From assembly GCF_964204645.1 (NCBI RefSeq), contig NC_134026.1:8889950-8953949 (forward strand): a DNA stretch of 64,000 nt, in the 5' to 3' direction. Of this stretch, positions 1 through 53,800 are shown piece by piece. The first letter of the stretch is position 1. Every line of letters starts with the position of its first letter. The position numbers and the translations under genes were made by a program. Source of the stretch: Tubulanus polymorphus. Lineage: Eukaryota; Animalia; Nemertea. The notes below the pieces were generated by a model. It ran no database searches and was not told where the DNA came from. It saw only the letters and a list, made by a program, of their open reading frames with translations.

Positions 1-1250
1 TCACCGGTCTCCAGAAGGATCGGTCAGTATCACTGGTAACAGTGGTATCGGGGTAGCAGTAGTATCACCGGTCTCCAGAAGGATCGGGCAGTATCACTGG
101 TAACAGTGGTATCGGTGTGGCAGTAGTATCACCGGTCTCCAGAAGGATCGGGCAGTATCACTGGTATCAGTGGTATCGGGGTAGCAGTAGTATCACCGGT
201 CTCGGAGAGGATCGGACAGTATCACTGGTAACAGTGGTATCGGGGTAGCAGTAGTATCACCGGTCTCCAGAAGGATCGGTCAGTATCACTGGTATCGGTG
301 GTATCGGGGTAGCAGTAGTATCACCGGTCTCGGAGAGGATCGGGCAGTATCACTGGTAACAGTGGTATCGGGGTAGCAGTAGTATCACCAGTCTCCTGAA
401 GGATCGGGCAGTATCACTGGTAACAGTGGTATCGGGGTAACAGTAGTATCATCGGTCTCGGAGAGGATCGGACAGTATCACTGGTAACAGTGGTATCGGG
501 GTAGCAGTAGTATCACCGGTCTCCAGAAGGATCGGGCAGTATTACTGGTAACAGTGGTATCGGGGTAGCAGTAGTATCACCGGTCTCCTGAAGGATCGGG
601 TAGTATCACTGGTAACAGTGGTATCGGGGTAACAGTAGTATCACCGGTCTCCAGAAGGATCGGGCAGTATCACTGGTATCAGTGGTATCGGGGTAGCAGT
701 AGTATCATCGGTCTCGGAGAGGATCGGACAGTATCACTGGTAACAGTGGTATCGGGGTAGCAGTAGTATCACCGGTCTCCAGAAGGATCGGTCAGTATCA
801 CTGGTATCGGTGGTATCGGGGTAGCAGTAGTATCATCGGTCTCGGAGAGGATCGGACAGTATCACTGGTAACAGTGGTATCGGGGTAGCAGTAGTATCAC
901 CGGTCTCCAGAAGGATCGGGCAGTATCACTGGTAACAGTGGTATCGGGGTAGCAGTAGTATCACCGGTCTCCAGAAGGATCGGGCAGTATCACTGGTAAC
1001 AGTGGTATCGGGGTAGCAGTAGTATCATCGGTCTCGGGAGAGGATCGGGCAGTATCACTGGTAACAGTGGTATCGGGGTAGCAGTAGTATCATCGGTCTC
1101 GGGAGAGGATCGGGCAGTATCACTGGTAACAGTGGTATCGGGGTAGCAGTAGTATCACCGGTCTCCAGAAGGATCGGGCAGTATCACTGGTAACAGTGGT
1201 ATCGGGGTAGCAGTAGTATCATCGGTCTCGGGAAAGGATCGGGCAGTATC
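1..1250 (+). repeat. 64-bp tandem satellite/minisatellite (~19 copies, runs off window start)
   Basis: Unit CCGGTCTCCAGAAGGATCGGGCAGTATCACTGGTAACAGTGGTATCGGGGTAGCAGTAGTATCA, period 64 (TCACCGGTCT at 1 and 65). Two main variants (ctccagaagg / ctcggagagg). Confidence 0.97.
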
Positions 1251-3779: not shown

Positions 3780-5881
3780 GATCCTAGGACAAATTCCCCC
3801 GGACAATTACCGCCGGACAATTCCCCCTGGACAATTGCCCCCAGGGTAATTGCCCCCCCCCCCCCGGACAATTGCCCTAAGTAAATCTTAACCCTAAAGT
3901 AGCAGCGCAGATACTAACTTCTGATAAATTAGCCTATTAACTTAGAACTAAGTAAATTTAGACTAGCTAACTACAGTTTACAGTTTACAGTTTATTTGAC
4001 AAACTCAAGGTCTACAAATTAGACAATATGAGTGAAAAATAGAACATTATACAAAATAACATAGCAGCGAATGCCGTGTTTACACAAATATTTTAGCAAT
4101 TTTACTTATAAAGATACATAAATTATAAAGTGTTCTGATGTTTTTTGTCTGCATAAGGGAGGAGAATTTATACTGGTTTGGATAAATTGAAAATTTTCTC
4201 TCAATGTACTTGGTCCTTAAAACGTCGAGGGTTGGACAACATAATATATAATGATATTCGTCCCCTATAGCACTGTTGCAAAGAGGACAGGTCCTGTTTT
4301 CTCTGGGTACTTTCATCCATCTACCAGTTTCAATTGGAAGTTTGTGGTTACACGTTCTAAATCTACTTAAACTATATAGCAGGTCATCAGGAATGTCCGA
4401 CGTGTAAATAAACTCCAGGCTATGATTATCTTTGAATAGAGAGTAATAGTCACCTTTAGGTGATTCCCTTATGGATGCTCTCCATTCTTGGAGGAACTGG
4501 TCCATTATTTTTTGTTTTAAAGTAGATTGCAGCCATCTAGTGTTTGGGAAGGATTGATCATCCCATATATTGTTTAAACCTACAGAATACAGAATATCTT
4601 TTACATTTCTAATCCATTTGAAATTTGGAGCTATGCCGTTAATGTAAAAAGGTCGCATAACTGATTTATACAGAATGCTAGAGAGTTTGTTCTGAGAACT
4701 GACTAAATTAGCCCAAAAGGAGACAATTCTAGATTTAATTACTATAGAAAGGGGGAATCTACCAGTTTCTCCGTACAACATGAACGTTGGTGTACTATTT
4801 CGCGCTTTCAGTACGTGTCTCAGAAAACTTAAGTGAACAGACTCAATAGAATCTATGTTAGAGAACCCCCAGACTTCACAGCCATATAATAAGACGGGTA
4901 CCACCGTCTGATCAAATAGTTTTAACTGACAATCTAGAGGAAGATTTAGACTATAAGTCTTACAGTATAGAGCGTGTAGTGCCTTTTTTGCTTGTGAGAC
5001 TAGGTATTTCTTAGTCGACAAAAAACCTCTATTTTGATGTAATAATAATCCCAGGTACTTATAGCTGGTAACAACCTCAATATTTTGATTTCCCATGTGG
5101 AACTGTTCATTTCCTAAGCCTCTAGAACCAAATATTATAATCTTTGTTTTTCTAGTATTGACCTTTAGTTTCCATACATTGCAGTATTCATGGAAATTAT
5201 CTAGGTTGCGCTGAAGTTCTTGCGCATTCTGCGCAAAAATTACCGTATCGTCCGCGTAGAATAGAATTACCAAGTTTGCATAAACGATGACATCGTTATG
5301 ATCGGACAAACTGATCCCATTACTGGCTCTATTATGTAAAAATTCTTCTAAGTCGTTTAAGTACAGGCAGAAAAGAAGCGGTGACATATTTTCACCTTGT
5401 CTGACACCTGTCTCACAAGGAAAAAAGGCAGATAGGTTACCATTAGCTTTCACACATGATTTAACATTGTCATACATGTTCTTCACACAGTTAAGTAATT
5501 TACCGTTTATACCATTTGTAAGAAGCTTTTGCCATAGTCCGGCTCTCCAGACTGTGTCAAAGGCTTTGGTAAAATCTACGAAAGCACAATATAGTTTCTT
5601 CTTCTGAGTTTTAATAACTTCAGCTAAAATATGTAAAATGTAGAGGTTGTCAACTAACTTTAGCTAAATACTTTGTTAAACACTAAAACTCATTCCAATA
5701 AATTAGTCACTAATAAGTTGAGGATGGATTTTAAAAGTTTTGATCTGCTAAAGTAACACTAAAACTAATTCAGATAAATCTAGTGATATATGTATTTTGG
5801 TGGTGTTAATCCAGATTTAAAAGGATTTACTTCGGTCGGGGGTGGGGGCAATTGTCGAGGGGGAATTGTCCTGATAGGGTC
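3780..5881. mobile_element. Non-autonomous TIR DNA element (8-bp TSD, hAT-like) interrupted by a LINE
   Basis: Imperfect TIRs GATCCTAGGACAAATTCCCCC / GGGGGAATTGTCCTGATAGGGTC, subterminal GGACAATT(G/C)CCCC repeats, and direct repeat TAGTTTAG at 3772-3779 and 5882-5889. Confidence 0.7.
3972..5652 (-). mobile_element. 5'-truncated non-LTR retrotransposon (LINE, RTE-X-like): RT domain + C-terminal CCHC
   Basis: ORF 4080-5486 extends upstream to ~5650 (YCAFVDFTKAFDTV). RT motifs GVRQG..MSPLLF, FYADD and YKYLG. C-terminal FRTCNHKLPIETGRW...CPLC...DEYHYILCC. 3' tail of (ACTGTAA)n at ~3972-3995. Possible TSD CTAACT. Confidence 0.92.
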
Positions 5882-8400: not shown

Positions 8401-9177
8401 CTATTTGTGTATGTCTATGTTTATGTGCTGCCAGTTTTCATCAAATATTAAACCAGATCCTTCAAAATATTTCTCTTCTATTTTAGTTTTTACTTCATTA
8501 TAACACTTATCTAATTTATCATCTATATGTTGTTTAGATATAATATGTTGTGAATTTGAATTTATATTATATATTGGTTTATCTTCAGATTTTATAAATT
8601 TAACTTTTGATGAAATACTTATTTTAGGATATTCAACATCAGTTATTATTTCTATTATATCTTTCATATTTTCTAAATGTTTTTTATTTTCTTCTAATGT
8701 TTTTCCTTTATGAAATTTAAACTCGATAGCTGCTGGACCAATATCACTTTTAAATGCTTCGGTTATCTCTATATCTTTTTTATTATCTAATGAATTAATA
8801 TAATTTCTTACATCTTCCATGTATGGTCTTTTATTGTTTAATTTATTTCTTATTCTTTTAATTGTCTTATGTTTCTTATCATTGTCATTATCAAAATAAT
8901 CTTCACCTAAAATATCATTATTCATATTTCTAATATGACCTTTAGATTTTAAATGTTCTTTATAATATCTTTTATCACTGAATGATTGATTACATGTATC
9001 ACATTTGTATGTTTCTTTTTCATTCTTTAATTCATCTAATTTAGTTTCTAATATATAATCTTTATATTCTAGTTTCAATTTATTCTCTAAATGTGTTTTA
9101 GTTTTATTGTGTCTTGCTTTTTGGGATTTATCTATATTGATTTTACATGTTGAACAGTAGTACTTAATTGCTTCCAT
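8401..9177 (-). CDS. Truncated AT-rich two-C2H2 zinc-finger ORF resembling the N-terminus of Polinton/Maverick-like PolB-associated proteins (endogenous viral/TE fragment)
   Basis: CSTC...H..TKTH and CDTC...H..SKGH fingers. FEGSGLIFD...INIDIHK resembles the 'GSGW' motif that precedes pPolB domains. Extreme AT and K/N/I bias unlike host genes. Intronless. Confidence 0.55.
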   Translation of the reverse strand: MEAIKYYCSTCKINIDKSQKARHNKTKTHLENKLKLEYKDYILETKLDELKNEKETYKCDTCNQSFSDKRYYKEHLKSKGHIRNMNNDILGEDYFDNDNDKKHKTIKRIRNKLNNKRPYMEDVRNYINSLDNKKDIEITEAFKSDIGPAAIEFKFHKGKTLEENKKHLENMKDIIEIITDVEYPKISISSKVKFIKSEDKPIYNINSNSQHIISKQHIDDKLDKCYNEVKTKIEEKYFEGSGLIFDENWQHINIDIHK

Positions 9178-9439
9178 TTTAATACTAAATTTTTTTTTTT
9201 AATTGATTTTAGAAGTTCAACTATTTAAATATGTATTATTTCAATCACACTTTACTAACACTTTTAATGTTTAAAAATCTAACTCATACAAATATAAATA
9301 TTGAAATAATGTTTAAAATATATCTATATATCTATTCTATAAGAGCTCGTACTCTCGTACTCTGGCTTGAAAGCCTACTTTTCTAATTACTTATATATGT
9401 TATTCATTTATATTTTATTCATATACATGAATATTTTAA

Positions 9440-10640: not shown

Positions 10641-11282
10641 TTAACTTTTTGTCTATCGTCCTGTCACCATACGCGGCAGTTTAGAGCCTAAATTGGCAAC
10701 CACCTGAGAAGTCACAAAACGTTCACAAAAGTCACATTCGACCCCGAAGGATGAACAACAAGTATTTCCATATAACATCTTTCTTTGGCGACATAACTTG
10801 AATTAGACCCTGGATCTTCCCCTGATGGCAAAAGTGAATTTTACTACAAGGGATATAGTTGAGATAGAAAATCAAATTATGATCTCACCATTCTCCCTGT
10901 TCGGAGTGAATTTAGAGTGAATGGATACCGTGGAATTTAAACTCTCAACATGCATGAATTGTGTCCAATTTAGCCAATTTCCATTTCGTCAAAATACATG
11001 TATATGAATTTTCAGTTGTATTCAGGTCTTAACTTAATTCATAGAATATTTGTTTTATTCTGTAAACATTCTAACTGCCGCGTATAGACCATAGAACTGT
11101 GAAGACAAACTGTGAAAATAATTTCTATCCTGGGCAGCAGCAGGGGAAGTAGATTAGAAAATATACGGATATTTTTAACTTTTGATAAACTGTTGAAGCC
11201 AGAATGAAGAATCTCTGCACGACATGATCGAGCAGACTGGGCACACTTTTGTCTGGGTTCTGATATGACCAGGTAATGGAAG

Positions 11283-12365
11283 ATGGATTTGAAGAATATT
11301 TCAACGACTTTCGAACCGACTGTGACAACTCCCGGTGATTGGTGCGCGTGGACTGTGAAAAACAGACCGTTCAAATGGAACCTACAATTCAGTGTTTACA
11401 TGTATATTTTCTGTTACGGACCCGTCACGATACTCGGCATCGCTCTGAACGTCGTCACAATTTTAGTGTTAAAGAAAATGAACAATGAAGCGTACTATCT
11501 GATACAAGTTTTAGCTATTTTTGATTTATCTTACAGTCTAAGTGTATTCACCATGTACCCTCTACGTACACTGCACATCTATATACATTTAGGAGACGTT
11601 CTTTTTCGCAATGATGACTGGTATTACGGTTGGGAATTCATACAAGTCGCTTTAGGCCCGTATCGCATGTTTCAACAAATTCGAAATTGGTGCGTGATTC
11701 TTATCAGTTTAGAAAGACTCGTCATAACAATTTTCCCATTGAAATCACGATTATTCTGGACTCGAAAAGTGGTGAATTCTCTGATATTTTTGATTACCGC
11801 ATACGGCGTTCTCGTTTATTTACCGCATTTGTTACCGGAACGGGGGCTTGAACCAATAGGTTGCATAGAAGGGGGACCAGGCGTGACACTTGTTCGCGAG
11901 TCTTATCTCATCAATTCTGCATTAATCAGTAGATGGAATGACTTTGCAGAAGGCTGGGAAGGAACGATATCCAGTATTGTTGTGCCCATGTTTTCATTAA
12001 TTGTTTTAAACATTATTTTGGTAATCAGTTTGATAATTATCAAATTATCGAGCGGGAAGAAGTTGAATAAGAGCGCTGCCAGTAGTTTAGAGCTGCGAGT
12101 TTTACGAATGTCGTTAGCGTTAGTCGCTTCATACATTATTTGTGAATCATCAATTTTCATCGAAAAAATGGGGTATTACAACAAGTTTCAAATCAAAATT
12201 CATTTTCCAGGTTTAAATCCTGAAGCATCGTATCTGATATATCGGAAATTAGCTATCGTTCTGACCGTCGTCGATTCCTGTTTAAATTTCTTCGTGTATT
12301 GTTTCACTAATAACAAATTCAGACTTGCTGTAAAAATTGTGTCCATTAAATCTACGCTTGGTTAA
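11283..12365 (+). CDS. Intronless class A (rhodopsin-like) GPCR, FMRFamide/peptide-receptor-like or chemoreceptor expansion member
   Basis: 360 aa with 7 hydrophobic segments. TM1 G..LN, TM2 LAIFD, TM3 SLERL, TM7 DSCLNFFVYCF. Confidence 0.9.
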   Translation: MDLKNISTTFEPTVTTPGDWCAWTVKNRPFKWNLQFSVYMYIFCYGPVTILGIALNVVTILVLKKMNNEAYYLIQVLAIFDLSYSLSVFTMYPLRTLHIYIHLGDVLFRNDDWYYGWEFIQVALGPYRMFQQIRNWCVILISLERLVITIFPLKSRLFWTRKVVNSLIFLITAYGVLVYLPHLLPERGLEPIGCIEGGPGVTLVRESYLINSALISRWNDFAEGWEGTISSIVVPMFSLIVLNIILVISLIIIKLSSGKKLNKSAASSLELRVLRMSLALVASYIICESSIFIEKMGYYNKFQIKIHFPGLNPEASYLIYRKLAIVLTVVDSCLNFFVYCFTNNKFRLAVKIVSIKSTLG

Positions 12366-16348: not shown

Positions 16349-18031
16349 CTCGTTGTCCTCCATAATTGATCGGGTCCGGCGTATGTCGGCTGACTCCAAA
16401 CTAAAGCCAAATCGAAAGTCACCGGTAAATTAGGTGGCGGATTCACTCGACTTTTATAACCGGGGAATGTGTAATGATTCAAGACAAACTGCCCTGAAAC
16501 AAATGAAGAGTAAGTTCAGAAACACAATGTAGAAGTTGTTTCGAAGATGCTATACTTTTTCGAAATGATTTTGAATTATTGAAGAAATCTCGAAGTTATT
16601 GATTTAGATAATATGATATCTTAGGAAGGCATCTTTTCAGAAATGGTGACTACTTTTTTGTAGTGAAGCCCATTTCATCCGTTTCATTAAGTACAAGCCG
16701 TACATAACTGGGGCAAGGGGCAGGGCAGTTGCCCCCTAGAAATTTTGGAAAAGTGCAATTATCTTTTTGCAGATATCATTGTTGCAGATATCATTGTTAT
16801 ATCCAATAGAAATTTCATGTAGAATCACTTATGTAATTGTAGTGACATTGGACTATAATAGGCCTTACCAGTTTTTGTTAGGTTAATCAGAAGAATCGGT
16901 ATATCGATTTTTGACTAGGTAGCTGCCCTTTTTTCGGGTTTGTCTGCCCCCCCCCCCACCCCCACAACATTCAAATGCTATGTAGTACAGCCCTGGATAA
17001 GGCAGGACCTGTTGATAGTTACCGACCTCTGAATCTAGTTTCTGTACTGAATTCAATCACGAGGTTTCCATCTGGATTCGTAGCAACTCGCAGAACCTGC
17101 AGTCGTCCACCGAGACGACCATCGGCTTCTAGTCCCGATCGCCACAGAACCGTATCATAGAAAAACGAAAACTCCATCGTCGTACGATGCTCCAAAGACG
17201 CCCAGCTAGAGGGCGCTGACGCGTAGATGTAAGACACGTATAGAGGCAAGCGAAATGTTAGAAATGTTTTGCCGCGTTTCCGCATTTGAAAATCCGACAA
17301 GACCGAACCTCCGCACATGTCGATCAAATCGGTCATGTGATACCAAGCCTCGAATGTCCACGCGCACGATTTCAAATCCAGTTTCCGGTAAAGTTTCAGC
17401 GACTTTTCCTCTCGAATGTTTTCGTCGAATAAAATGCCGCGTTTTGTCGCGTTTTCGGCGTTCGTCCGGTCGTCGTCGATAAATCCGTCTCCGCGAAATT
17501 CTCCTCCGACGTCGACGAAATTCGAACACGTATGCTGGCGTTGATAGATCGAATCTGACAGCAACAATCGCATATTATGAATCGGAAACGTCGATATAAG
17601 CAGAATCATACCGTCTTGGTGAGGAATCTCGATTTTGATATGTATCCTGTTCGGATGAATCGCGTCGTTCGGTTCCACGTATTTCATCGTAGCGACGAAC
17701 GAATGACCTTGAAGGCCGTATCGGTGCCCGGAAACGATCGCCGACTGGCAGACGCCGTTTTCGCGACTGACGAAGACCGGACGGCTTTTTATCGGGACTC
17801 CGAACGAGCCGTCGCCGGATGTCGGCCGAGCGACGCATCGCACGCTGAAGCCGCCGCGAAAATATATACTATCCAGAACAGAACGATCGACGCTCGTGAA
17901 AACGGTGTCGGCCAGGACTAATTGAAACGGTAAATGTAATCCGTTCGTATCTAACGGTAACGCTACCTCCCATTCATACTTGATCAATGATTGGTTGTCG
18001 TGTCAAAATTTGGATATCGAGAATCGCATGG
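16349..18031 (-). pseudogene. FRAS1: Inverted near-identical duplicate of the first two FRAS1-like exons and intron (copy of ~1673-3342)
   Basis: ORF 17019-17987 is ~97% identical to the + copy. Identity runs from 16349 through the AT-rich flank (to ~18455) and into the satellite. Confidence 0.92.
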
Positions 18032-18451
18032 CTGAAATTAATACAATTTCATTGTATTAATGATATCCAGAAGACCATTCAGTTATCAATATTTCTTTTC
18101 TTTTCTTTACTCGTTTTTTTTTCAATCTCAATTATTTTCAATAGTTTTGTCATTTTATCTACTCTTATTTTTTTATGTTCTCTCAGCATTTTTTACTATA
18201 TCAGTGTATCTTAATGTTAATATGTACATGACTGTCCTGACCATTTGTCAACAATCATCCTAATATCTCATCTTCGATGATGTTTGTGAATGAGTAAAAG
18301 ATTATGGCTAGGATTTTAGGAAACAGTATTTGAAATTAATCTTGTCTTCATTAATGCATGTACACCCGAATAATGTTATTTAAGGTGAAACATTGTGAAG
18401 TCGGAATAGTAGATGATACACAATATGAGCCGGAAGAATCGTTCACCGTTA

Positions 18452-18836
18452 AATGATACTGCCCGATCCTCTCCCGAGACCGATGATACTACTGCTACCC
18501 CGATACCACTGTTACCAGTGATACTGCCCGATCCTTCTGGAGACCGGTGATACTACTGCTACCCCGATACCACTGTTACCAGTGATACTGTCCGATCCTC
18601 TCCGAGACCGATGATACTACTGCTACCCCGATACCAATGTTACCAGTGATACTGCCCGATCCTTCTGGAGACCGGTGATACTACTGCTACCCCGATACCA
18701 CTGTTACCAGTGATACTGTCCGATCCTTCTCGAGACCGGTGATACTACTGCTACCCCGATACCACTGATACCAGTGATACTGCCCGATCCTTCTGGAGAC
18801 CGGTGATACTACTGCTACCCCGATACCACTGATACT
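18452..18836 (-). repeat. Same 64-bp satellite, inverted (~6 copies)
   Basis: Reverse complement of the unit at 1-1250. Confidence 0.95.
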
Positions 18837-19231
18837 ACGGATGCTTTCGGCCCGTGTTGTATGCGGTGGAAATGTTCTGTTCTTACTGTATTGTCCCATC
18901 GCTCCCTCTACATAGCCGCCATCTTGAAACGGTGTTCTGCTACACCACTGACTAACCGTGTAATTTGACAAGTGAAGACTTGTTCACGTAGTTTTTGATG
19001 TTCCATTCGTTGTAAGAGCCTTGTGGCGATCGTGAAATCGTGAAACTGAATGGAGCCCAGTCGTTAACTCTGTATCTACTCTATTGATTCAACATTAATC
19101 TTTGGATAAAAAATTACAGATTTTGTTTGGGTAAAAGACAAAAAAGAGTAACGGTGGTAGTTTGGTACTGGTATTTCGACGAAGTACACAACAGTCACCA
19201 CTGGGGACTGCCACTGGATACGATGACAGTC

Positions 19232-22971: not shown

Positions 22972-23280
22972 TTCCTTTCGGCAGCGATTTGAACCTGATG
23001 GCATCGAGACTCGCCACGGTACGAAGCCCGCCACACTAGCTCGAGTGCGCAGCTTTGATGATGTTATTATTATATCATATATCCCGCTTTATTTTAGCCT
23101 GGGTTTTCCCATTTGCAGTTTTTCCGTGAAATTTGCCTCAGCGATCATACAACGGGCCATCCAATTGATGTTGCAACTTTTCGTGCCGCAAACCTGTGCA
23201 CCTGGTCTAGTGTGGCAGGGTTTCGCGTCGTGGCCGAGTGTAGCGATGCCATCAGGTTGGAATCCCTGCCGAGAGAGGAT
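22972..23280. mobile_element. MITE family with B-box-containing TIRs (copy 1)
   Basis: GGCAGCGATTTGAACCTGATGGCATCG ... CGATGCCATCAGGTTGGAATCCCTGCC; homologous to 26954-27299 and 31420-31758. Confidence 0.8.
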
Positions 23281-26307: not shown

Positions 26308-29300
26308 TCAATCGTCGTCATCGCTGAAATCTTCGGGATCGGGGATCGGAAATCGAAGGATTGCAGCTACGCCGGATAGTTGTCCTAGTTCTATGATAGA
26401 ATAGAAAGAAAAAACAATCTGAAGTTTTATCGCGGTAGCCGGCATCTCTTAACGACGTATGTCTAGCCTGTGTTTAGGTTACGCAGCATTTTATTTAGCA
26501 GTTGGCATTTAGTTGTCGTGGAATAAACTGAGTTGAAATCGCCTTCGAAGCAATCGCAAGCTATGGGCATGTCATCTTTTCAGCTCAGTCTTTGTGAGAT
26601 TCTTCAGTATGTCTTGTCTCTCTTGGACTAAATCTGAAATTGCTTTACTTACGTTCACCAGATACATGTAAACTAGAAAATATCTTGACATCTCCGGCAT
26701 TATCTCTTACGCTATCGACGAGCGCGACATAGCGTTTTCGTTTCTCCAAGTCACTAGATCTGAAATGTGCTATTTTTGATGCAATGCGAATCTCATAATT
26801 GCGGCAGTGGTCGGAGACGTTATACGGGAGCGGATGTCGAAAAATTCAAGGCCGAGGTCCAGTACAAAAGTAAAGGCATTTTCTAGATATAGAGGCAGCC
26901 ATGTCAAATGGCACTAGGGTCCCACTTTAGATATCTTAGAAGAAGGCGAAACGCGTCCTCCCCAGCAGGGATTTGAACCTGATGGCATCAAGGCTCACCA
27001 AAGTACGAAACCCCGCCACGCTAGACCGAGTGCGCAGCTACATTGATATCATTTAGCCAATCAGATTTCCTGTTTGATGTCATTTAGCCAATCAGATATC
27101 CTGTTTTATTTTAGCCCGTGTTTTTCCATCCATAGTTCTTCCGTGAAAAATCTCTTCAGCGATATACAATGAGCAATCTGATTGGTGCTGCAAGTTTTTG
27201 TGCGGTAAACCTGCGCATGCACCTGTGCACCCGGTCTAGTGTGGCAGGGGTTTGTGGCTGTCTAGCGATCCCATCAGGTTCGAATCCCTTCTGAGGATGG
27301 CAAAAGGTTGCAATTTCTCAGAGGATGTGAACAAATTTGCACATTTTACAATCTCTGTTTTGATGAAAAGGGCAACCCTCATGGGAAGGTACGGTCCGGC
27401 CCCCGAGACCACCACCTAGATCTGCGCCTGGTTCTGTAGTAAAATCGTTGTGGGTGGACTTACCTAAATAATTCATCGGATACGAGCAATGTTTCTATCG
27501 CTTGAGCTTCATTGGCAATTTCTACATGATTGATGCTGAAAAGATAATCGTGTAATAAGAAGATATTTGGGTTTTGTTAAGAAATAATTCTAATCATGTT
27601 ACACCAGTAAATCATGTTAACAGGGCAGCGATTCATGAAAAAAAGTCAAAGTAATAGTATTCTGTTGAAATGCAGTTCATGAAAATTACTGATCAAACCA
27701 AGCGCAGACTTCTCTTGAAAAATGGGCCCCCGAAATGTAACGCTTACCCGTAGAATGCTCTGTTACTATCGGTTTGAAGCATTTGATAGAAATCATCTAA
27801 AGCCTTCACTTCACCGGCTGCTTTAGTATCGGCTAATTTACTAACAACTCCAGAATCACACAGCACCTCTATCAATATCGAAACATAAAACACGACGTGT
27901 CACGATCAATCAAAACTTTAAAATACTGTCAAACCCCCTAAAATGCTCGCCTGTTACCCAACAGTGGGCGGAAGCTTTCCTTGATTTCTAGGGTTGGGGT
28001 CACTGGTCAAGATATAGGTGCAGTCTATATAAGTTAAGTCTAGTAGCAGCTGATCCATTTATACCATTATGAAATGACACAAGTGCACTGACTCAGCAGT
28101 CAGAGTTGCCATAACTGCCACTGAAAAATCTGGTATTATTTTTTTCAAAGCGAGTACCAAAGGTGCAAAGCCTCAATGGGGTTTTTGGGGCCCTCCAACG
28201 AGAGTGTGATATTATGCAGATTGGAACCAAATATTTCCGAATTAAGCAGCACTGACTATATATCATCAATTGAGCGGTCTTGAAGAGGTCTTTTCATGGG
28301 CAAATATCAACTCTGAACTTGATTCCAGCATAGGCCTACCTTTCAATGAATGTTTGAAGCCGGATGAAGTGTGCACCATTATGAATTTGGATTTGTTTTC
28401 CATGAAGATCTTGTAGTCCATTTTAATCGCCTGTTGAAACATGTATTCGCAGAACTGATCCTGAAATTTAAAACCGGGTTCAATCATCTGTTAATCTGTT
28501 AAAAGAGAAATGGAAACCGAAGGTCGCAGAGAACCATCTAAGTGAACGTTACCTTAACGAATCCAGGACTACCAACTAGTACACACTTCACCACTGAAAT
28601 AGATTCGAATTGAAAATGTTGAAAAGTTTAAATGTTGAAACGTTTAATATCTAAGTATCTCGACGACCATGCAAATATCCACAAACTGTCCTTACCATCG
28701 AAATTGACGTGTCTTTGTACGGCTTGTATTACTTGGTCGTAAAACCTTTTTAATCCCTGGAAGAAAACACATACTGGTACACGCAAATGCATAGCTTATA
28801 TTCTCAAATAATGAAACTATAAGCTGAACATTAGTAGACTACGCCAGTCAGGCCTTTGGGACTACGAAAGTTTGTGCAACTTTAGTGATATATATTTTGT
28901 ATACAATCTGGGACAGGTCTAGGAAAATTCAAAAGCCTGCACCCAGAAGAAAAAAGCCATTTCTTGGATATAGCAGCCAAGTCAAAGGTCTTTATTGGGG
29001 TTCCCCATGGCTCTGCCTTGGTTTTAGATAAGAAAAACATCCAAAAGGTTTCCAAGAGGATATCTGTCAAATTTATAGGTTTTAACGACATCTTTCTTGA
29101 GAAAAAGGGCCACCTCAATGAGAAGGCAGGGGTCCAGACCCCAGAGACCACATCTTAAATCTACCCCTGATACACAGTGCCACAAACATGTTAAACTAAC
29201 AGTTATCCGAGTTGATCTGACGTGACTTGAGAGTAATTCACCGTACTTGAATTTGACATACCTTGTCGTGTTGCGAACAAGACCCTCTACGTTTTCTTGG

Positions 29301-32300
29301 AATGCTGACTTCGATCTTGGCGCGAACTAACGTCATACTGCCGGTGACTAGGCAAACGTGGGCTATTCCTTCCTGCATGATAACCGCTGCAAGGTCGGCG
29401 GATTGCGTCGGATCCGTCGCCAATTCTGTGAAATAGATACCGAAGTAAGTTGTATAGGTAAAGAATATCATGTTTTAAGAAGTTGTTATTTCTTGTTTTC
29501 GTTGAGGAGCTTCAACTTTCTCATGAAACCGGACGTATGCCCTATGATTAGTTGAGAGGTCCAAAACTGAACTAAGCCTTATCCAGGGTTCATTGTGCCA
29601 CTGCTGGCCCAAATGCAGTGTTCCTGTTATGCCGAATTCACTGCCAACTGCAGCAACTTTCTAAGAAATGAGCTAATTTTTGAGCTAGTTACCATATATG
29701 CGACACTAATACTATTTTGATTAGTTGAAGCATGGATTTTACAGTAGAACTCGCTTAATTTGGATCACCTGCGAACAACAGCGATCGTTTTGTTTTGAAT
29801 AGTCAGCACCTTACAAAAAAAAACCTTATAAAAATTGTTTTGCAAATCATCAAAATCTTCTAGATTGCGCATGCGTGTCAGTGGCAAAATCAAAATGATA
29901 ACTAAAATTTGGATTTTTCTTTATTCTGGCGTTCGTTCCATAATATTACTCCCATTACCGTACAGTGCTGCCATCTCTCCATAATCATTTTATAGGTTTT
30001 TATTTTCGATTTTTAGTGACTTTTTTCGGAAAATGATGGTTTTTAGTATGCAGGCGCGGATCTAGGGAGGGGGCCCGGCCCCCTCCCTCCTTTAAATGAA
30101 GATCGTTTTTTATGCTTTAGTTGATCAGCAGCAGAAAAGGGGAAAGTATTTGTCATGAATTCTTGCTTCAGAATGCAGGAAATAGCCCCAAAACAGAGTT
30201 AAATTTCAAAAATTTTCTGGGGGAGGACCCCCAGACCCCCGCACGGGCTAGGAACGTCTCGCACCTACGCTGCTCGGTGTCAATACAGTATCATCATAGC
30301 TACATTTACTAGGTGGTCCCCCCCTAAATTGGGCTCTAGATCCGCCCCTGGTATGGTCAGCCATATGTATCAAAATGGCCGCTATGGGATACCAAATGTC
30401 AAAATTATGAAATAATATATTCACAATTAGTCTTATGTGTTTCATATGTGAAAAATAGATCAATTGCAATTATTTTTTCAAAAAGTCAAATTTTGACAAA
30501 AGGGCTCAGCACAGGGCAAACACAGGCCTCAGCAGTGAAAGGGTTAAAGTCCTGACGCGAAGTGCTTTCTAGAAAAGTAACTGCAATGAGATTAGAGGTT
30601 TCAAGTAGCTTCCAGACAAAATCTTGAAGAATTATGAGCTTTTTGTTTAAAATTATCTACCTCGTCTTGTAAGAATGTGCCCTTCTTTGGGCATGGACAA
30701 ATTTTTTTTTAAAGGCACAAGATTTTTGCGCAGAAGTACATGCCTACGGTGCTATCGTCTTATTCCGAGCATGATTCCTCTAGTTATCAATCATCACACA
30801 GCAGCCATCTGAGAATAACACGCGTGTTTTTGTGTAAAACCTAGATCGGCTGTGGGCTAGTCAGTGGGCCATTTTTTCCTTTGCTGTATCCAGCTGTGAG
30901 GCTACGCGAGGGCCCCTTTACAAAACAATCAATACATACCTATGCGGTCCAGGGCAACGCTATCCCAGTAACGTTTAGCCAATGTAAAACTTCGGTTCAA
31001 CTCTAAATCTACAGTATGGTAAGCACCCATCTGCAACGAAAAAAATCAATTTCAATGCATTTGTAACAGGAAGAAATATCTGTCCTTCCCGAGATTCGAA
31101 CTCCCGATGCCTGGCGTCCAAGGCAGATGCTCTACCGTTGAGCCAAGGGGAATATTACCGCTAGCTGAGCTAGTAGGAATGCTGTTATACACCCTGTCAC
31201 ACTCACCCCTTCTTGGAAAGACACGTCCTCGTGTCGTGATTCCCTAAGGTGATTGACATTACCACTCATGACGACTGTGGGACGACATGAACTTGGACCC
31301 AGAGATATCGCAGAGACGGACGAGCCCCCAAATGTAACAGGAAGAAATATCTGTCCTTCCCGAGATTCGAACTCTCGATGCCTGGCGCCCAAGACAGACG
31401 CTCTACCGCTGAGCCAAAGCATCCTCCACCGGCAGGGATTCGAACCTGATGGCATCGAGATTGCCACGGCACGAAACCCTGCCATAATCGACCGTGTGCG
31501 CAGATACATGCGCAGTTCAGATGATGTGATTTTTAGCCAATCAGAAATCCCGTTTTATTTTAGCCCGGGTTTTCCCATTTATAGTTCTTCCTTGAAATTT
31601 GCCTCAACGATTATACAACGAGCAATCTGATTGGTGCCGCCAGTTTTCGTTCGGAAAGCTGCGCATGTACCTGCGCACCCGGTCTACTGATACAGGGGTT
31701 CGTGCCGTGGGTGAGTGTAGCGATGCCATCAGGTTCGAGTCCCTGCAGAGGGAGGATGAGCCAAAGGGAATATTCCTGCTAGCTGCTAGTAGGAACGCTG
31801 TTATACACCCTGTCACACATTCATGAGAATAAGTTCAAAAATATGATTATCATAATCATTATCATCCTTTTTAACTTCACACCTTAAAATGAAAAAAAAA
31901 TGTTTCCTATGGAAAAATGTAAAATATAAAAATAAAAAATATAAAAATCTTCAGAAAGCATAGAATTTCAGCTTCTTTTCCAGCTTATATCTAGAGAGAA
32001 TATAACGACTACAATCATTCTACATCATTTTCACGATGAAACTTTTATTCGATTAGATTTATATTTGACTTTATACACTTTTCACTTGCAATGGGGACAG
32101 GAAAACATAGAGAATCTCTACACCATTGCCAGTGACGATGTTATCTCGTCATTGAGTTTTTTTTATACAAAAATACATCAGTGTATTGATTTATCAATGT
32201 ACAAACAATGCTGGAAGCATATAAAATGCATGTCGTCAAAAATTAGCATCGGCAATGGCGACCGGACCAAAACCGCAGTTGTGACTAGGAATAGGATCTA

Positions 32301-35300
32301 TTTAGACATAGATATTGTGGCACTTATTTCAAAAATAATTTAATCAGTTTGTTCATTGATTAGTGTCAATCTGAGTATGATGCCCCTAGTCTCAACTTGT
32401 ATTGTCTCTGGTTGAGACTGCCCATCGTAGCTATATAATTCTCTAGCGGGAAACATATTGTACTGTCTTTGTTTTTGTTTGAGTATCATGTATGTGTATA
32501 AAATGTGATGTGTAATGGGCTGAAGGGAAGAAATTATACGATTGTAGACCGAGTTGGATCTCCGACCTTGGATCAAGAATAAAACTGCTATACCGAATAT
32601 TCTACATCAGTTGTCTGTCCCTTGCAACTATATAGAAATCCGAGTTGCTACACGGTCTCTTTCTGTAGCCCCGGAACATCAGTACTTTGTTCCAAGCAGG
32701 TTTCAATTGTTTTTTAAAGGACATACCAAGTATAAGCATAGATCACGAGAATGAACCAAATTAATATGCCGTAAGACCAGCTCATCTCTATTTCGAGGTC
32801 AAATATGCGTTGAAGGGAATCGGACTTACGAAAATATAATGGCTACTTCACTGAAGTTCTACAGCGGATTTTCGCGCAGAAATATTCACGAATTTCTCGT
32901 CCGAGTAAAAGATATATGTAGAAATTTATCACATAGTTACAAAAACAGAATTGAGTGAAAATGTCCAATAGCAGTTCTCTCCGTTTCTTCGAGAATGGTA
33001 AAAATACAGTCACAGCGGACGGAAGTGTGAATATTGCAAATGCGAGTGAAACTGTTACGAGCATTATTGTCGTACGTTTTGATTTTGTAGTTTTCTGATC
33101 AGACGAAATCATTTTTGAACCTCTGAATAACTGGATTATTATAACAGAATTTGACGCTAGAATAAAAGTCAAAGGTATAATGATCACGTGTATGACGATT
33201 ATGATGAAATATCTTATTTGGTCGAATAATTCAAAGTAACATCTGAAAAACTGTTCGGAAAATTGAATCGAAAAAGTTGGAAGAAGATACAGAACCAGTG
33301 CATTCACTGCAGTAATGATCAATATAGCAAATCTAGCGAATCTCGGTGTACATATCAAACGAGATGTGAATGGAAAGAGTACAACTGCCGCACGTTCTAG
33401 AGATACTATTAACCACGAACTATTGCCGTTTACAAGTGCCATTATGAATTCATAAATTTGACAACTGATCAGTGAATTCATGATGAATATAGGACCATCT
33501 TCAACGTGGAAGAGGACAAACTGCAAAACAGGCATCAGTGTAAAATGCATGCAAAATGTGTAATCACAGAGAGCCAACACGATAAGATAGTTAGCGTAAG
33601 ATAAACTGCGGAATCTGCGACTTATCATTATCAGGAAAGTAGCCGAATTTCCGAAGGCTCCAAACAGAAACACGATAGGCAGAACAACTAGAGACACAAT
33701 TAAATAGGTTCCAGACTTATTTACCACTGACATAAGAACTAAGTCACTGTTATATGATCGACCAATTTGCATTGGAGACGAATTCATGCTTCATGAGGCT
33801 TAAATAAGAGTGTACTGACTGTCTGTGAGTGTACTGACAAACTGATAGTATCTCCTTGTCTATTGGGAAAAAGTCTTACACACAGTTTTATCTATTTGTT
33901 CTATCATCTACAGTTCTATCAAATCTATCTATTTGCAAGATTTATTGCTCGCATCAAATATAAAGAGACAATTCTCCGCAAACTAACACGATTTACTTAG
34001 ATTTAATGAAAGTTCATCATGGTGTACCTAACTAAATCAAATTCAAATATTCATTTTACCTCATTGTAAATGAATAAGTAAAATCAGAGGGATAGTGCTT
34101 TATAGGTTAACCCTTTCATTACGTGGTACACTTCGCTTTGTGGTACACGGTCACCGGTGACCCGCATTTTCATAGAGAATTTTCATAACACCCATGCGCT
34201 ATCTAGCCCAAAACCTTGTATTTCAGCTACTTCGTACAAACAGTCGTTTCTTGATATATTTAGTGGATCAATAATAATTAATATATTCCTCTAATTGCGC
34301 GGACTACCTTGCTACACTAAACAGAAGCCCCATGGAGCTTGACGCAGCAGCTTCACAATTTCATATTTCAAATATGCTAGAAGGGCATATCTAGGAACGA
34401 ATCGACGGATACAAGAACATTGAAAACGGCAAGTAAAGAATCCACGCAGCCAAAACCAAGGGTCTAAAAATGTGATATTTCAGTGCAATTTTATACTATT
34501 TCTATGTACTGAGACGTAGCGGTCTTATTAGTTGCTGGTCGTGGAAAAAGTGCCCTGAAAAATATTGCCACTGTATTTTCAAAACGGCGTAGGAAAATAC
34601 ATCGCGACTGGAGCAAGTGCTCTTGGGTGCTCCCATCTGGATCCGCCACTCAGGTCTTTAGTTCATTTCCATGCAGAAACTTTCGGAAATATCAAGATAG
34701 GAATAACCTTAAAGGGTGATGGAAACACATCATGTTCAGAGGGGGTTCCGTGCAATATATACTTAAACAAGTAAGAAATCCTAAAAGATGGGCTTGCTGA
34801 CACGGTTGTACTGAAAGCTTTCGTGGCTTTGTATTTCTGTAGTAGAATTAATTGAACTTTGAACCGATTACTTTTTGTCTATATAAAAAGCTAAAAAGAT
34901 CGGTGCTGTCTTACAATCGTAACATGAAATGTTACACCCGCGGACTGGGAATTGGAATGGTTTTATTCATAGACGTCGACTAATTTAGTGCCAGCTTTTA
35001 AGCGGGCCGCACACTAGCGTCAAAGTCGCCGCAACAACTACGCCACAGCAATTTACCAACGGCATTGATGCTAAAAACTTTTCCCGCACACTAGCAGCAA
35101 TGAAGCAGCTTCGAGTGTTGTATCTGCAACGATTGTATGTCACGTGGCAAATTAATCAATAATATGATCTCCACGCATGCGCATTGAAACTCAATCCGGC
35201 TAAATCATGCGGCCTTGCCACAGAATTAGGCGCGCTCTCGGGCATACTTGCTGTGCCTAGTCAAAAATATCAAACATGTCGGCATCAAAGCCGTGTTGCA

Positions 35301-43511: not shown

Positions 43512-44141
43512 TCAAACTTCGATATCATCTTCGGTGTAGCCGTTGAGATCGCCGTTGATGTACGGAAAATCGCAGTCGCCGTTTGTAAACACGAGCGCAT
43601 CGGTCGTGCTTGGGTAACTCCTGAACATCGGCTCGCAACTCGAAAATCCATCCACCTCGTACGAATCGTCGAACAAATCGCCGTTCCTCGATCCGTTTAA
43701 TTCGACGGCGACGCTCGCTACGTATTTCGACGAGGGCGCCAACTCGCAACTGACAGACGGCGATAGATTCACTTCCGTCGTGTACCACTTTTTACCCGGT
43801 TCGACGTAACGATAGTAAATACATCGGTACGAAATCTTCTCCGATTTCGGCAGGACGTAGACGGTTTCGGAAAATTCGACCGGTTTGTTTTTCGGCGCCA
43901 GTTCGACCGAGCTGACGTAATGAGTCGACGTGGAATTTTTCGCGTATTTAATGATCGTGCTGCCGTAACTGACCGGCGTTTGAACGAGTTTGATTTTGAC
44001 GGCGTTTTTGTGTCGTTTTTCCGAGTCGAATCGGAAGATGCTCGTCACTTTGGTTTCTTCGCGCTCCGATTCCGGGTCAACCGATATCGATTCGACATAG
44101 TTGGTCGGAATCATTCTCGTCAGTGAGTTCACATCCTTCAT
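43512..44141 (-). CDS. Uncharacterised 209-aa protein (single coding exon, probably with an upstream UTR exon)
   Basis: Host-like CG-rich codon usage, as in the FRAS1 and PELO exons. Acceptor AAACAG lies just upstream of the ATG (~44146). Divergent from PTCD3. No recognised family. Confidence 0.65.
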   Translation of the reverse strand: MKDVNSLTRMIPTNYVESISVDPESEREETKVTSIFRFDSEKRHKNAVKIKLVQTPVSYGSTIIKYAKNSTSTHYVSSVELAPKNKPVEFSETVYVLPKSEKISYRCIYYRYVEPGKKWYTTEVNLSPSVSCELAPSSKYVASVAVELNGSRNGDLFDDSYEVDGFSSCEPMFRSYPSTTDALVFTNGDCDFPYINGDLNGYTEDDIEV

Positions 44142-44639
44142 TGTCTGTTTTGATGAATAAACAAAATGATATAGGCAGTTAGCATCGGATTAGAAAAATG
44201 TTTAATCATGAATGAAAATATTGGATTAGAATATTCTAAACAGGCCTAGGCCAGGCTAATCTGAAATGAATAAAAATGACGACCATGTCCCTGTCCCTTC
44301 CCTGGCCTAATAATCAGAAAGTAAGTTAAGTAGGGGGAGAGCACAGGGCTTGACACAAGGATTTTGACCCCAGTATCCTAGGTACCTAGTTAAAAGACAA
44401 GGGAGCCAACTCCAGCAGATCGGTCGATAGGTATTTCACTTCAACAGTTCGTAACTTCGTTATTAGTAATCCAATCCGCTTCAAATAAGATTATTCTTAA
44501 AGATAACGAAGTAAGTACATAAAAGATACTCAACTGGGGTCAAAATCCTTTTTTTGTGTCAAAGTCAAGTCCCTGTGCCTGTGGTGTGTGGGGGAGAGAG
44601 AGAGTATTCAGGCCACTTCTGCCGGTGCCACCCCATATG

Positions 44640-50800: not shown

Positions 50801-53800
50801 AATGTATGGCTGGTCTACATGACTAGCTTTCAGGCAAAGGCATTGCAAAAATGCTCCCTTATGAGCCCTCATTTTACTGGAAAGTACTTCTTTCTGAGTC
50901 TAAAAGTCCCTCCTTTTGGGTCTAAAATTGCCGAAAAGGTCTTTCTTAGTACTTCTTTTTACCCGAGCCTTACCACTGGAAACCCTGTATGAAGGATATT
51001 TGTATGCTGTTCTTTGTACAAGGTTACCATAAAATGAAATAGATGAAATTTAAGCAACGTTTAACGAGTAACTGGATGTAACATTGCTTGTTGAATAATT
51101 GATAATGCGTACGCCCAAGGGGTCGGTCTGGTGCAGAAAACCCTTCGACTTTCTTGAATCCTGTATGTATGTATCCGTCGCAGTGCATCATGTAAAATGT
51201 TATGGCTTTTAATTCTGCACATATTTCAAATTATTCACCGGTTCGGAATACCGATACCTAATAATTAACCTTATTAGTTAAACGTAGCAAATTTTTCACG
51301 TTCTGCTGCGATGTGTACCGGTAGATATTTTTATCAGAATGCAATATTAGAGTCACGTTACATTAAACATTTCGGATCAGACTCGAGTACTTTTTACACG
51401 TTGATTGCCGTCGAGAATTATCATACATAACATCGTGTTCAGTCGGTTTATGAGTACTCGCGCTCATGATGACTTCGACATTACTTCGACCAAATTACGA
51501 AAATATCACCGCTATAATCTCCGCAGAAGTCACGCCTGATCCAGCGGAATGCAACCCACCGGTCAGATGGCAATATACCTTCAGCGTCTATATGTACGTA
51601 TTGGCGTATTTACCGGCGTCGTTGATGGGAAACGTTCTCAATTCAGCTACGATAACAGTTTTTCGTCGTATCGATAGCGACGCGTATCTGACAGTCATAA
51701 TTCTCGCGTGGTTCGATTTGCTTTTTCTGATCGCGGTGTTTCTACTTTATCCACTGCGAACAATCGTTATCTACGCATCGCTCTACGAACGCATACACAG
51801 GTACGATGACTGGTATTTTGGACACGAAATAATTATTTGGGCGATGCTTTTTTTCTTCGTTTTTCAAATGGCCAGGAATTGGTCCGTTGTCATATTAACT
51901 TTAGAATGATTAATTGTTGTCGCTAGCCCGCTGTATTTCAGACAGTTTTGGGCCAAAACTCAAATCGCTTATCTTGCAGTTTTGAATTTCGTTGTATCCG
52001 TATTCTTAAACTGGCCTTACTTCTTTCCCCTGTATCTTCCTGCTAGAGCTTCTTGGCATTGTTTTCGAGAGATCTCGCTGTACACTTTGGGAACATTTGG
52101 AGCTACGCTTATCCGACCTCCTTTCAATTACAATTTCGGCATTGCATACGCATTTACATACCACACTTCTATGTTCATGTGCACTATTTCCCCATTCGTT
52201 ATATTGGTTGTGATAAACATCGCGCTGATGATAATAATCGTACGAAATCGTTACAAACTGCGAAAGGAATTAGCCCCATCTGTAGTCAGAATATCGTATA
52301 CAGATTCGAAAGAGCAGAAGATTTTGAAGATGGTTCTTTTGATAGTTTTGATGTTTATGATATTTGAAATTCCTGCTTCAATTGACCGTCTTATAACTTA
52401 TCACGAAACACGGTTTAGATCGAAGTTCAGCTTTTCACAGGATTCGTTGATGTTGATGAGAAAGATTGGAATTCTACTGAGCATTTTAGATTCGTCTCTA
52501 AATTTTGTAAAAAGTGTACTGTTCAACTAATATGCTTTTCAAAAAAACCGCTAAAGTATTTTTTCTCATTCACTATTTTACTCATTGAATACGCGCTTGG
52601 TTTATGAGATGGATTGTAATCGTGTAAACCCTGCTAGGTCTATTACTGATCGCTGGGTTTAGTTTCGGATCCTTCGGAAAACAACTGCAGGGTCCATTTG
52701 TCAAAAGATTATTTCTTTTTCGAATACAAATAATTAGATCCCATTTGATCATTATGACGCTTAAATTTCCAAATCCAATGAAAATTAAATTTTTGAGGTT
52801 TGTATCAGTAGTAGCAGCTGCCCTATGGCGGGCCAAAACCACCAAAACATAACAAAAAGGTTGAACGATGTCTGAAAGATATAAAACGATAAAAAAAAGA
52901 TATGAAACGATGATACTTAACGTATAGAACAATGGTATTAGTTATGAATCGATGATAGAACATGCATTGATGAAGAAAACTTTATTTAACGATATCATTT
53001 GATGATGTTAGTCTAAAAACGATGATCAAAGATAGACTGGTTCCCTTCGAACGTCTAAAACAGCGCGACCTTGAGAGAGTAGTTGAAAATAATCGGTTTT
53101 CATAACCGCACTCTGTGGGAACCAGTCTATCTTTCATTATCATTGGTCGGGCGACTGTCATTAGTGCTGCACCGTTTTAGACGTAGACTGGTTGCCTGTC
53201 CAATTCTGCGCTTGATTTTCGAACTATTTCCAGAATATAGTTCCAACTAACGGACATTCGGTTTCGTTTAGTTCGACTATAGTCGACTAACTCAGAAAAC
53301 CGAAGGCGGCCCAGAATAGCTGCCTAACTACCAGTCTATTTTAGACATTTGAAAGGGAACCCATTGTTTTTAGACTAACATCATCAAATGATATCGTTAA
53401 ATAAAGTTTTCTTCATCAATGCATGTTCTATTATCGATTCATAACTAATACCATCGTTTTATACGTTTTAGTATCATCATTTCCTATCTTTTTATTATCG
53501 CTTTATATCTTTCAGACATCGTTCAACCTTTTGTTACATTTTGGTGGTTTTGGCCCACCATACTGCCCAACGAAACAACGATTTCAAATATTCTTTATCG
53601 AATGTATTCGATTATGATTGATATGAAAACTGGACTTCACTTGCAATTCTGCACAGCACTAAACAATTCAACATGAATCACACAATAAACGTATGATGTC
53701 GGATTTTCATCAGTTCATTAAAGCAAAACTTAAACACGCGCTTGCATAGAAAATGTTAAACTTGCACTGATATCAACTGGGAAATCTGGGTCCACCGAAG

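What the first reader, a model, noticed from the sequence alone, without database searches (positions are those of the whole stretch)
31062..31817. Miniature LTR retrotransposon whose LTRs are a tRNA-like Pol III gene (a tRNA analogue of Cassandra TRIMs)
Seen in the sequence: two ~140-bp direct repeats with TG...CA ends and short terminal inverted repeats, plus a 4-bp TSD (CATT). A 14-nt PBS (TGGGGGCTCGTCCG) lies 2 nt inside the 5' LTR, a purine tract abuts the 3' LTR, and the non-coding interior is only 131 bp. About half of each LTR is a tRNA-like sequence with an A box (TGGCTCAACGG) and a B box (GTTCGAATC), oriented like the PBS/PPT. Established knowledge: this PBS is the tRNA-Pro primer site, 4-bp TSDs are common for Ty3/Gypsy integrases, and plant Cassandra TRIMs carry a 5S Pol III promoter in their LTRs. 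Inference: this is a non-autonomous SINE/LTR hybrid, transcribed by Pol III but mobilised by Gypsy-type RT/integrase. I know of no described animal TRIM family with this design.
Basis: partly seen in the sequence, partly recalled or inferred. Interest (0 to 1): 0.85.

Follow-up and report, generated by a model that had tools for sequence, protein, structure and literature searches.

The report
Helenus mini-retrotransposon in a ribbon worm
This is a small, gene-less jumping element whose two end repeats each carry a decayed tRNA-gene look-alike; it is present in several copies in what appears to be a ribbon worm and fits the Helenus group described in 2024, so it is a new family of a known kind, likely copied by RNA polymerase III and likely moved by a larger Gypsy element.

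Summary
On the minus strand lie two LTRs (140 and 138 bp, 129 of 138 aligned bases identical), a 131-bp interior with a 14-nt tRNA-Pro primer site and a purine tract, a 4-bp target duplication, and A and B boxes in each LTR. The host is most likely the nemertean Tubulanus polymorphus. Raw reads give about 7-10 interiors and 26-51 LTRs per genome, with varied flanks breaking off exactly at both LTR ends. The novelty claim fails. Kojima 2024 (PMC10886601) describes Helenus: TRIMs with tRNA-derived LTRs, 4-bp duplications in animals, families in nemerteans and a Pro-primed bivalve family. Tubulanus is not listed there, so this is a new family. This scan has met Helenus-type elements in other genomes. 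One small addition: the LTR shares non-tRNA sequence with Lineus, oyster and coelacanth Helenus, which hints at one old lineage rather than separate origins. Pol III transcription and the Gypsy helper remain untested.

The parts
31058..31061 (.). 4-bp target-site duplication, left copy
31062..31201 (-). 3' LTR, 140 bp, TG...CA ends
   Evidence: reads break off to varied flanks at 31062 and 31201
31085..31152 (-). tRNA-like segment of the 3' LTR; A box 31145-31135, B box 31101-31093
   Evidence: Rfam RF00005 20.2 bits, E 0.28, model 1-71; boxes
31169..31181 (-). 13-nt stretch upstream of the tRNA part, identical in three published Helenus LTRs (Lineus, two oysters); leads into a short hairpin
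   Evidence: fold
31202..31214 (-). Polypurine tract next to the 3' LTR (12 of 13 purines)
31224..31231 (-). 8-nt motif 30 nt before the interior's end, also near the interior's 3' end in 17 Helenus families and 1 Ajax family
31202..31332 (-). Interior, 131 bp, no protein-coding capacity of use (one stop-free frame of 43 codons)
31317..31330 (-). Primer-binding site, 14 nt complementary to the tRNA-Pro 3' end, 2 nt after the 5' LTR
31333..31817 (-). 5' LTR, 138 bp of LTR sequence plus a 339-bp insert and its 8-bp duplication
31362..31416 (-). tRNA-like segment of the 5' LTR; A box 31416-31406 (left whole by the insert's duplication), B box 31372-31364
31420..31758 (.). Inserted 339-bp inverted-repeat (MITE-like) element with 8-bp duplication at 31412-31419 and 31759-31766; a separate high-copy family, likely hAT-type (class recalled from the 8-bp duplication)
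31818..31821 (.). 4-bp target-site duplication, right copy

Best explanation
It is a gene-less LTR mini-retrotransposon (TRIM) of the Helenus kind, multicopy in what appears to be the ribbon worm Tubulanus polymorphus, likely transcribed by RNA polymerase III from the tRNA-like boxes in its LTR and likely reverse-transcribed and integrated by an autonomous Gypsy element. Shown: the anatomy, the 4-bp duplication of this copy, many copies with different flanks and an excess of LTRs over interiors. Inferred cycle: TFIIIC would bind the A and B boxes of the 5' LTR and Pol III would start at the tRNA +1. The RNA would run through PBS, interior and PPT into the 3' LTR (no run of four or more T in between) and end after the second tRNA-like segment, making that segment the terminal redundancy (R). 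Host tRNA-Pro would prime minus-strand synthesis at the PBS and the PPT the plus strand, and a Gypsy integrase would give the 4-bp duplication. The excess LTRs are likely solo LTRs left by LTR-LTR recombination. This copy is old and decaying (LTRs 6.5% apart) and was later hit by an unrelated DNA element. Odds: Helenus membership about 0.95, Gypsy helper about 0.85, Pol III as the working polymerase about 0.65.
For: Anatomy. tRNA model matches in both LTRs in the element's sense. PBS equals the tRNA-Pro site used by Helenus-1_TeGr and Gypsy-13_CGi. Animal Helenus make 4-bp duplications, and only Gypsy elements share their PBS types. Size matches nemertean families: 140+131+140 = 411 bp against Helenus-1_LiLo 137/133/407 and Helenus-1_NGe 138/123/399. 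Sequence kinship outside the tRNA part: a 13-nt exact match with Helenus-1_LiLo, -1_CGi and -2_CVi, 36, 35 and 35 nt before the A box against 36 here (published spacings counted by eye); 20 of 22 nt with coelacanth LTR2_Lch at the U3-tRNA junction (by eye). Raw reads of run X7 (12% of the run read): flank depth about 7-8, interior about 55, LTR about 207-277; that is 7-10 interiors and 26-51 LTRs per genome over four baselines. Loose ends pile up at both LTR ends, 109 and 102 reads; the two largest piles have flank agreement of 0.42 and 0.44, meaning many different flanks. No T4 run in the stretch a Pol III transcript would cover, from the 5' tRNA-like segment to the end of the 3' LTR.
Against: tRNA matches are weak, below Rfam's gathering score. 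No transcript evidence exists for this family, and Kojima states Pol III activity of Helenus is unvalidated. No autonomous Gypsy partner was identified, and no genome was available to look. Only this one copy's target duplication was seen. The LTR has no canonical Pol III terminator (only T3 runs), while published relatives such as Helenus-1_LiLo have T5 at that place, which would stop Pol III inside the 5' LTR unless it leaks; the Pol III model has to handle both cases. Depth over the tRNA half (about 277) exceeds that over the other half (about 207); I cannot tell edge effects and double-fitting reads from a subset of copies that share only the tRNA half.
Confidence: 0.85

Rival explanations
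1. Same element and same Gypsy helper, but the template RNA is made by Pol II (from U3 or by read-through from host DNA). The tRNA-like segment is kept as a TFIIIC-binding insulator or as an RNA structure for packaging, not as the working promoter.
For: Published Helenus LTRs often carry T4-T5 runs right after the tRNA part, which would end a Pol III transcript in the 5' LTR. Sequence upstream of the tRNA part is conserved across phyla, which an internal Pol III promoter does not need.
Against: What is conserved across Helenus is the A and B boxes. U3 is only about 50 bp. The transcribed stretch of this element has no T4 run. Cassandra, the 5S analogue, is Pol III transcribed (as stated).
Confidence: 0.25
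2. An ordinary TRIM in which a tRNA-derived SINE has inserted into only some LTR copies; the tRNA part is a passenger.
For: Depth over the tRNA half is about a third higher than over the U3 half. One contig of run X1 has a variant A-box region.
Against: Both LTRs carry the segment at the same place. The best-supported loose ends of run X7 fall at the LTR ends, none at the tRNA boundary (6 rows shown for X7; 39 rows over all runs not shown). Depth is tens of copies, not SINE-scale. The U3-tRNA junction is homologous with Helenus of three other lineages. An ancient SINE insertion as the origin of the group is Kojima's own proposal and is not excluded.
Confidence: 0.03
3. A functional tRNA gene pair or a local duplication that mimics an LTR element.
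For: The whole tRNA model can be aligned to the 3' LTR.
Against: Score below threshold, broken anticodon and T stems in the alignment, no ARAGORN call; PBS, PPT, terminal repeats and target duplication all in register; dispersed copies.
Confidence: 0.01

Closest known systems
Helenus (TRIMp3), animal families; Kojima 2024, Biology 13:119, PMC10886601 (whole main text read, parts 1-6 of 6; supplement parts 1, 10, 11 of 11 read, the rest only as search passages)
   Same: TRIM under 1 kb, tRNA-like segment with A and B boxes in each LTR, tRNA 3'-end PBS, PPT, 4-bp duplication, solo LTRs. Size and LTR sequence closest to Helenus-1_LiLo (Lineus longissimus) and Helenus-1_CGi / -2_CVi (oysters); Pro PBS as in Helenus-1_TeGr (Tegillarca granosa).
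   Different: Host is a palaeonemertean; the paper lists only two heteronemerteans (Table 1; 'Tubulanus' 0 hits in the supplement). The three nemertean families there start with Lys-type (two) or Ile-type (one) primer sites by comparison with Fig. S2; this one uses Pro. The 14-nt PBS string has 0 exact hits in the supplement (line breaks can hide a hit). No T4 run after the tRNA part.
Cassandra (plant TRIM with 5S rRNA in the LTR) and Ajax (nemertean TRIM with a 5S promoter), as described in PMC10886601
   Same: TRIM with a Pol III-type small-RNA segment in each LTR; Ajax-1_NGe shares the 8-nt motif before the PPT.
   Different: 5S-type promoter instead of tRNA-type; Ajax makes 5-bp duplications and uses tRNA-Leu.
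biv-TRIM (Satovic et al. 2019, PMC6934838; passages read)
   Same: Small animal TRIM in lophotrochozoans with a short interior and PPT.
   Different: Repeats of 202-218 bp, no canonical PBS identified, no tRNA-like LTR in the passages seen.

Membership tests
Helenus | TRIM: two LTRs, non-coding interior, under 1000 bp | tested here: met
   411-bp unit without the insert, 756 bp with it; 131-bp interior; published range 311-1263 bp
Helenus | tRNA-derived sequence in the LTRs, with A box (TRGCY..YGG) and B box | tested here: met
   Rfam tRNA is the best match in both LTRs though below the gathering score; A and B boxes 44 nt apart. The base before the B box is A where most families have G; some published families share this
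Helenus | PBS complementary to a tRNA 3' end just after the 5' LTR | tested here: met
   14 of 14 to tRNA-Pro as printed in Fig. S2C
Helenus | PPT before the 3' LTR | tested here: met
   12 of 13 purines
Helenus (animal) | 4-bp target-site duplication | tested here: met
   CATT on both sides of this copy, not 5 bp; other copies not checked
Helenus | Dispersed family with solo LTRs | tested here: met
   7-10 interiors, 26-51 LTRs; varied flanks at exact LTR ends. Solo LTRs inferred from the ratio, not assembled
Helenus / TRIMp3 | Transcription by RNA polymerase III | not testable with these tools
   Needs 5'-end mapping or ChIP; unvalidated for Helenus in general
Helenus (animal) | Mobilised by a Gypsy element with the same primer type | not testable with these tools
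   No genome held; 0 matches for LTR end plus Pro PBS in viral contigs
Cassandra / Ajax | 5S rRNA-derived segment in the LTR | tested here: not met
   No 5S match in Rfam scans of the region
Functional tRNA gene | Cloverleaf above Rfam and ARAGORN thresholds | tested here: not met
   20.2 and 14.8 bits against 29; ARAGORN 0

The most novel reading that the evidence does not exclude
A large part of animal Helenus is one ancient lineage, not a set of independent SINE captures. The same U3 hairpin and U3-tRNA junction occur in a palaeonemertean, two heteronemerteans, bivalves and the coelacanth, implying an origin before these phyla split, or transfer between marine phyla, with repeated primer switching (Lys, Ile, Pro). 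The 8-nt motif about 30 nt before the interior's end, shared by Helenus of wasps, bivalves and this worm and by Ajax, is the cis signal (likely a relic of the Gypsy pol end) by which these elements are recognised by their helper.
Probability: 0.35. Interest if true: 0.45.

Novelty: new member of a known kind. Interest (0 to 1): 0.2.

Why it matters
As it stands it extends Helenus to a further nemertean class and adds a Pro-primed nemertean family: useful for repeat libraries and for avoiding false tRNA calls, not a new principle. The shared non-tRNA motifs bear on two questions Kojima leaves open, single versus multiple origins and how a TRIM stays tied to its helper, and they name two short sequences that could be mutated to test this.

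Tried and rejected
No whole genome is held, so the genome-wide search for copies, their target duplications and a Gypsy partner could not be run; read depth was used instead. BLAST in the window found no second copy of the LTR or interior. Sequencing runs: no RNA holder listed; this says nothing on expression. Viral contigs: 0 matches for LTR end plus Pro PBS. Metagenome scan: 2 loci, L001 and L002, hold a different tRNA-LTR TRIM with a Pro PBS (160-bp LTR, 83-bp interior, tRNA scores 36-53 bits); it lacks the 13-mer and the pre-PPT motif and matches this element only at the LTR end and PBS. The idea that the insert's arms are tRNA-derived found no support in Rfam (2 chance-level hits, neither tRNA). 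Earlier notes: none for this genome or sequence. Literature: 'Helenus'+'TRIM'+'retrotransposon' gave 3 listed papers of 4; 'TRIMp3' gave 1 relevant of 6; a four-term search for Tubulanus repeats gave 0; a four-term search for the pre-PPT motif gave 0. PMC13570524 only cites Helenus (passages). Repbase and Dfam cannot be searched here, so a Tubulanus entry deposited since 2024 is not excluded. Contig depths of runs X1, X2, X4 and X5 were not used for copy number.

Full report
Observation. The element lies on the minus strand. The 5' LTR spans 31817-31333, the interior 31332-31202 (131 bp) and the 3' LTR 31201-31062 (140 bp). CATT flanks it on both sides and does not extend to 5 bp. The LTR ends are TGTGACAGG and CCTGTTACA, an 8-of-9 inverted repeat. 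The two LTRs agree at 129 of 138 aligned bases with one 2-bp indel. The PBS starts 2 nt after the 5' LTR and matches 14 of 14 bases of the tRNA-Pro 3' end printed in Fig. S2C of PMC10886601 (by eye). The last 13 nt of the interior hold 12 purines. Each LTR has an A box and a B box 44 nt apart; they were the only 2 of 22 B-box matches in the window with an A box at such a distance (box patterns recalled). Rfam's tRNA model matches both LTRs in the element's sense, at 20.2 and 14.8 bits, below the gathering score of 29, and ARAGORN calls nothing. The segment is therefore tRNA-derived but not a tRNA gene.

The 5' LTR carries a 339-bp inverted-repeat element (31420-31758) with an 8-bp duplication. 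It has two more copies in the window at about 76% identity and about 760-1120 copies per genome by read depth, with unrelated flanks. An 8-bp duplication suggests a hAT-type MITE (recalled). It inserted at the start of the A box, but the duplication leaves the A box whole downstream of it, so the internal promoter of this copy is formally intact; the predicted start would fall in the last four bases of the insert (inference).

Host. A FRAS1-like reading frame in the window is 100% identical over 68% of its length to a protein named for Tubulanus polymorphus; the next hits are 55% or lower. That species is a palaeonemertean. This rests on one protein. Flow-cytometry sizes of 358 and 313 Mb are published for two forms under this name (PMC8468679, passages).

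Family. No genome was available, so I laid runs on the locus. In raw reads of run X7 (12% of the run), unique flank has depth about 7-8, the interior about 55, the U3 half of the LTR about 207 and the tRNA half about 277. Over four baselines this gives 7-10 interiors and 26-51 LTRs per genome. Loose ends pile up at both LTR ends, 109 reads at one and 102 at the other; the two largest piles, at exactly 31062 (64 reads) and 31201 (76 reads), have flank agreement of 0.42 and 0.44. The LTR therefore moves as a unit to many sites, and LTRs outnumber interiors by more than two to one, as expected with solo LTRs. Of 435 laid reads, 228 are 90-95% alike to this copy. At 6 of the 9 substitutions between the LTRs most reads side with the 5' LTR, at 3 and at the indel with the 3' LTR, so each LTR has drifted on its own since insertion and the copy is not recent. 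About 11 of 210 reads keep this copy's own base at 31138, near single-copy depth, which suggests the X7 animal carries the same insertion (inference). Against: the tRNA half is about a third deeper than the U3 half and I cannot say why; target duplications of other copies were not seen.

Comparison with what is known. The first literature search returned Kojima 2024, PMC10886601 (whole main text read; supplement parts 1, 10, 11 of 11, the rest as passages). It defines Helenus as TRIMs with tRNA-derived sequence in their LTRs, in six animal phyla including Nemertea, with 4-bp duplications in animals and PBS types shared only with Gypsy elements. Helenus-1_LiLo is 137/133/407 bp, against 140/131/411 here. 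Helenus-1_TeGr and Gypsy-13_CGi use tRNA-Pro. Every structural criterion I could test is met. Tubulanus and Palaeonemertea are absent from Table 1 and the supplement, and the three nemertean families have Lys- or Ile-type primer sites, so this is an unlisted family as far as that paper goes; Repbase and Dfam were not searchable. This scan's notes hold 71 findings with these words in at least 18 genomes, 8 shown; I had reached the paper before seeing them and take no support from them. A metagenome scan found another Pro-primed tRNA-LTR TRIM in 2 contigs, so the combination is not unique.

Beyond the paper. Kinship extends outside the tRNA part. A 13-nt stretch upstream of it is identical in Helenus-1_LiLo, -1_CGi and -2_CVi (3 hits in the supplement), 36, 35 and 35 nt before the A box against 36 here (published spacings by eye). 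I chose that 13-mer after seeing the Lineus sequence, so the chance figure (0.07 for a hit anywhere among about 230 families) applies fairly only to the oyster hits. The U3-tRNA junction matches coelacanth LTR2_Lch at 20 of 22 nt (by eye). An 8-nt motif lies 30 nt before the interior's end; it occurs 19 times in the supplement against about 1.4 expected, and 18 of the 19 are near the 3' end of an interior, in bivalve and wasp Helenus and in Ajax-1_NGe; related families are not independent counts. The paper's main text mentions neither motif and favours multiple origins; one targeted literature search found nothing. The motif resembles the end of Gypsy pol reading frames (recalled, not tested). 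The metagenome family lacks both motifs, as do many published families, so they do not mark all of Helenus.

Mechanism. Shown: anatomy, dispersal, LTR excess. From established LTR biology: tRNA-Pro priming at the PBS, PPT priming, integrase-made duplication, solo LTRs by recombination. Inferred: a Gypsy helper (4-bp duplication, Pro PBS) and Pol III transcription from the 5' LTR's boxes. There is no T4 run from the 5' tRNA-like segment to the end of the 3' LTR, and the first long T run lies in the flank at 31045-31039, so Pol III could make a full-length template with the tRNA-like segment as R; a T3-C-T2 stretch near each LTR end might act as a leaky terminator (recalled, untested). Published relatives often have T4-T5 there, which keeps a Pol II model alive at about 0.25.

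Verdict. A real feature, correctly described apart from the insert, and a new family of the known Helenus group. Interest 0.2. The boldest reading not excluded, a single ancient lineage with a shared helper-recognition motif, has probability about 0.35 and would deserve about 0.45.

Noticed in passing
window 31420-31758; further copies about 26954-27299 and 22979-23280: High-copy inverted-repeat element (about 760-1120 per genome). Both arms carry an outward-pointing B-box match (31733 on +, 31445 on -; also in the second copy) and inner CCAAT-type inverted repeats. Rfam sees no tRNA in it. It could scatter TFIIIC-binding sites; untested.
   Followed up: partly
window 855-3343 and 16349-18848: 2.5-kb inverted duplication at 97% identity holding a FRAS1-like reading frame; 327 aa open in the second copy, 249 aa with a shifted end in the first. 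Each copy abuts a 64-bp tandem array (1-1251, 18454-18835).
   Followed up: partly
window 4080-5663 (-): 527-aa reading frame with a reverse transcriptase domain (RVT_1, E 8.5e-30), probably a 5'-truncated non-LTR retrotransposon; no link to the TRIM shown.
   Followed up: partly
window 11277-12365 (+), 32843-33790 (-), 51454-52530 (+): Three intronless rhodopsin-type receptor frames (7tm_1 hits); the third is split by one in-frame stop at 51907-51909. The TRIM lies about 1 kb downstream of the second.
   Followed up: partly
window 8401-9198 (-) and 43512-44189 (-): A lysine-rich 265-aa frame with weak C2H2 zinc-finger hits in an AT-rich stretch, and a FAM101-family frame (E 1.2e-18).
   Followed up: no
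L001 1389-1717 and L002 1405-1792: A different tRNA-LTR TRIM with a Pro PBS in two metagenome contigs: 160-bp LTR, 83-bp interior, tRNA scores 36-53 bits, above Rfam's threshold. Host unknown.
   Followed up: partly
window about 31950-32200: Another moderately repeated sequence begins about 130 bp from the element (depth 60-100 in run X7).
   Followed up: no
window 31127-31170 (contig of run X1): A variant LTR with a rewritten A-box region appears in one contig; possibly a subfamily or decayed copies.
   Followed up: no
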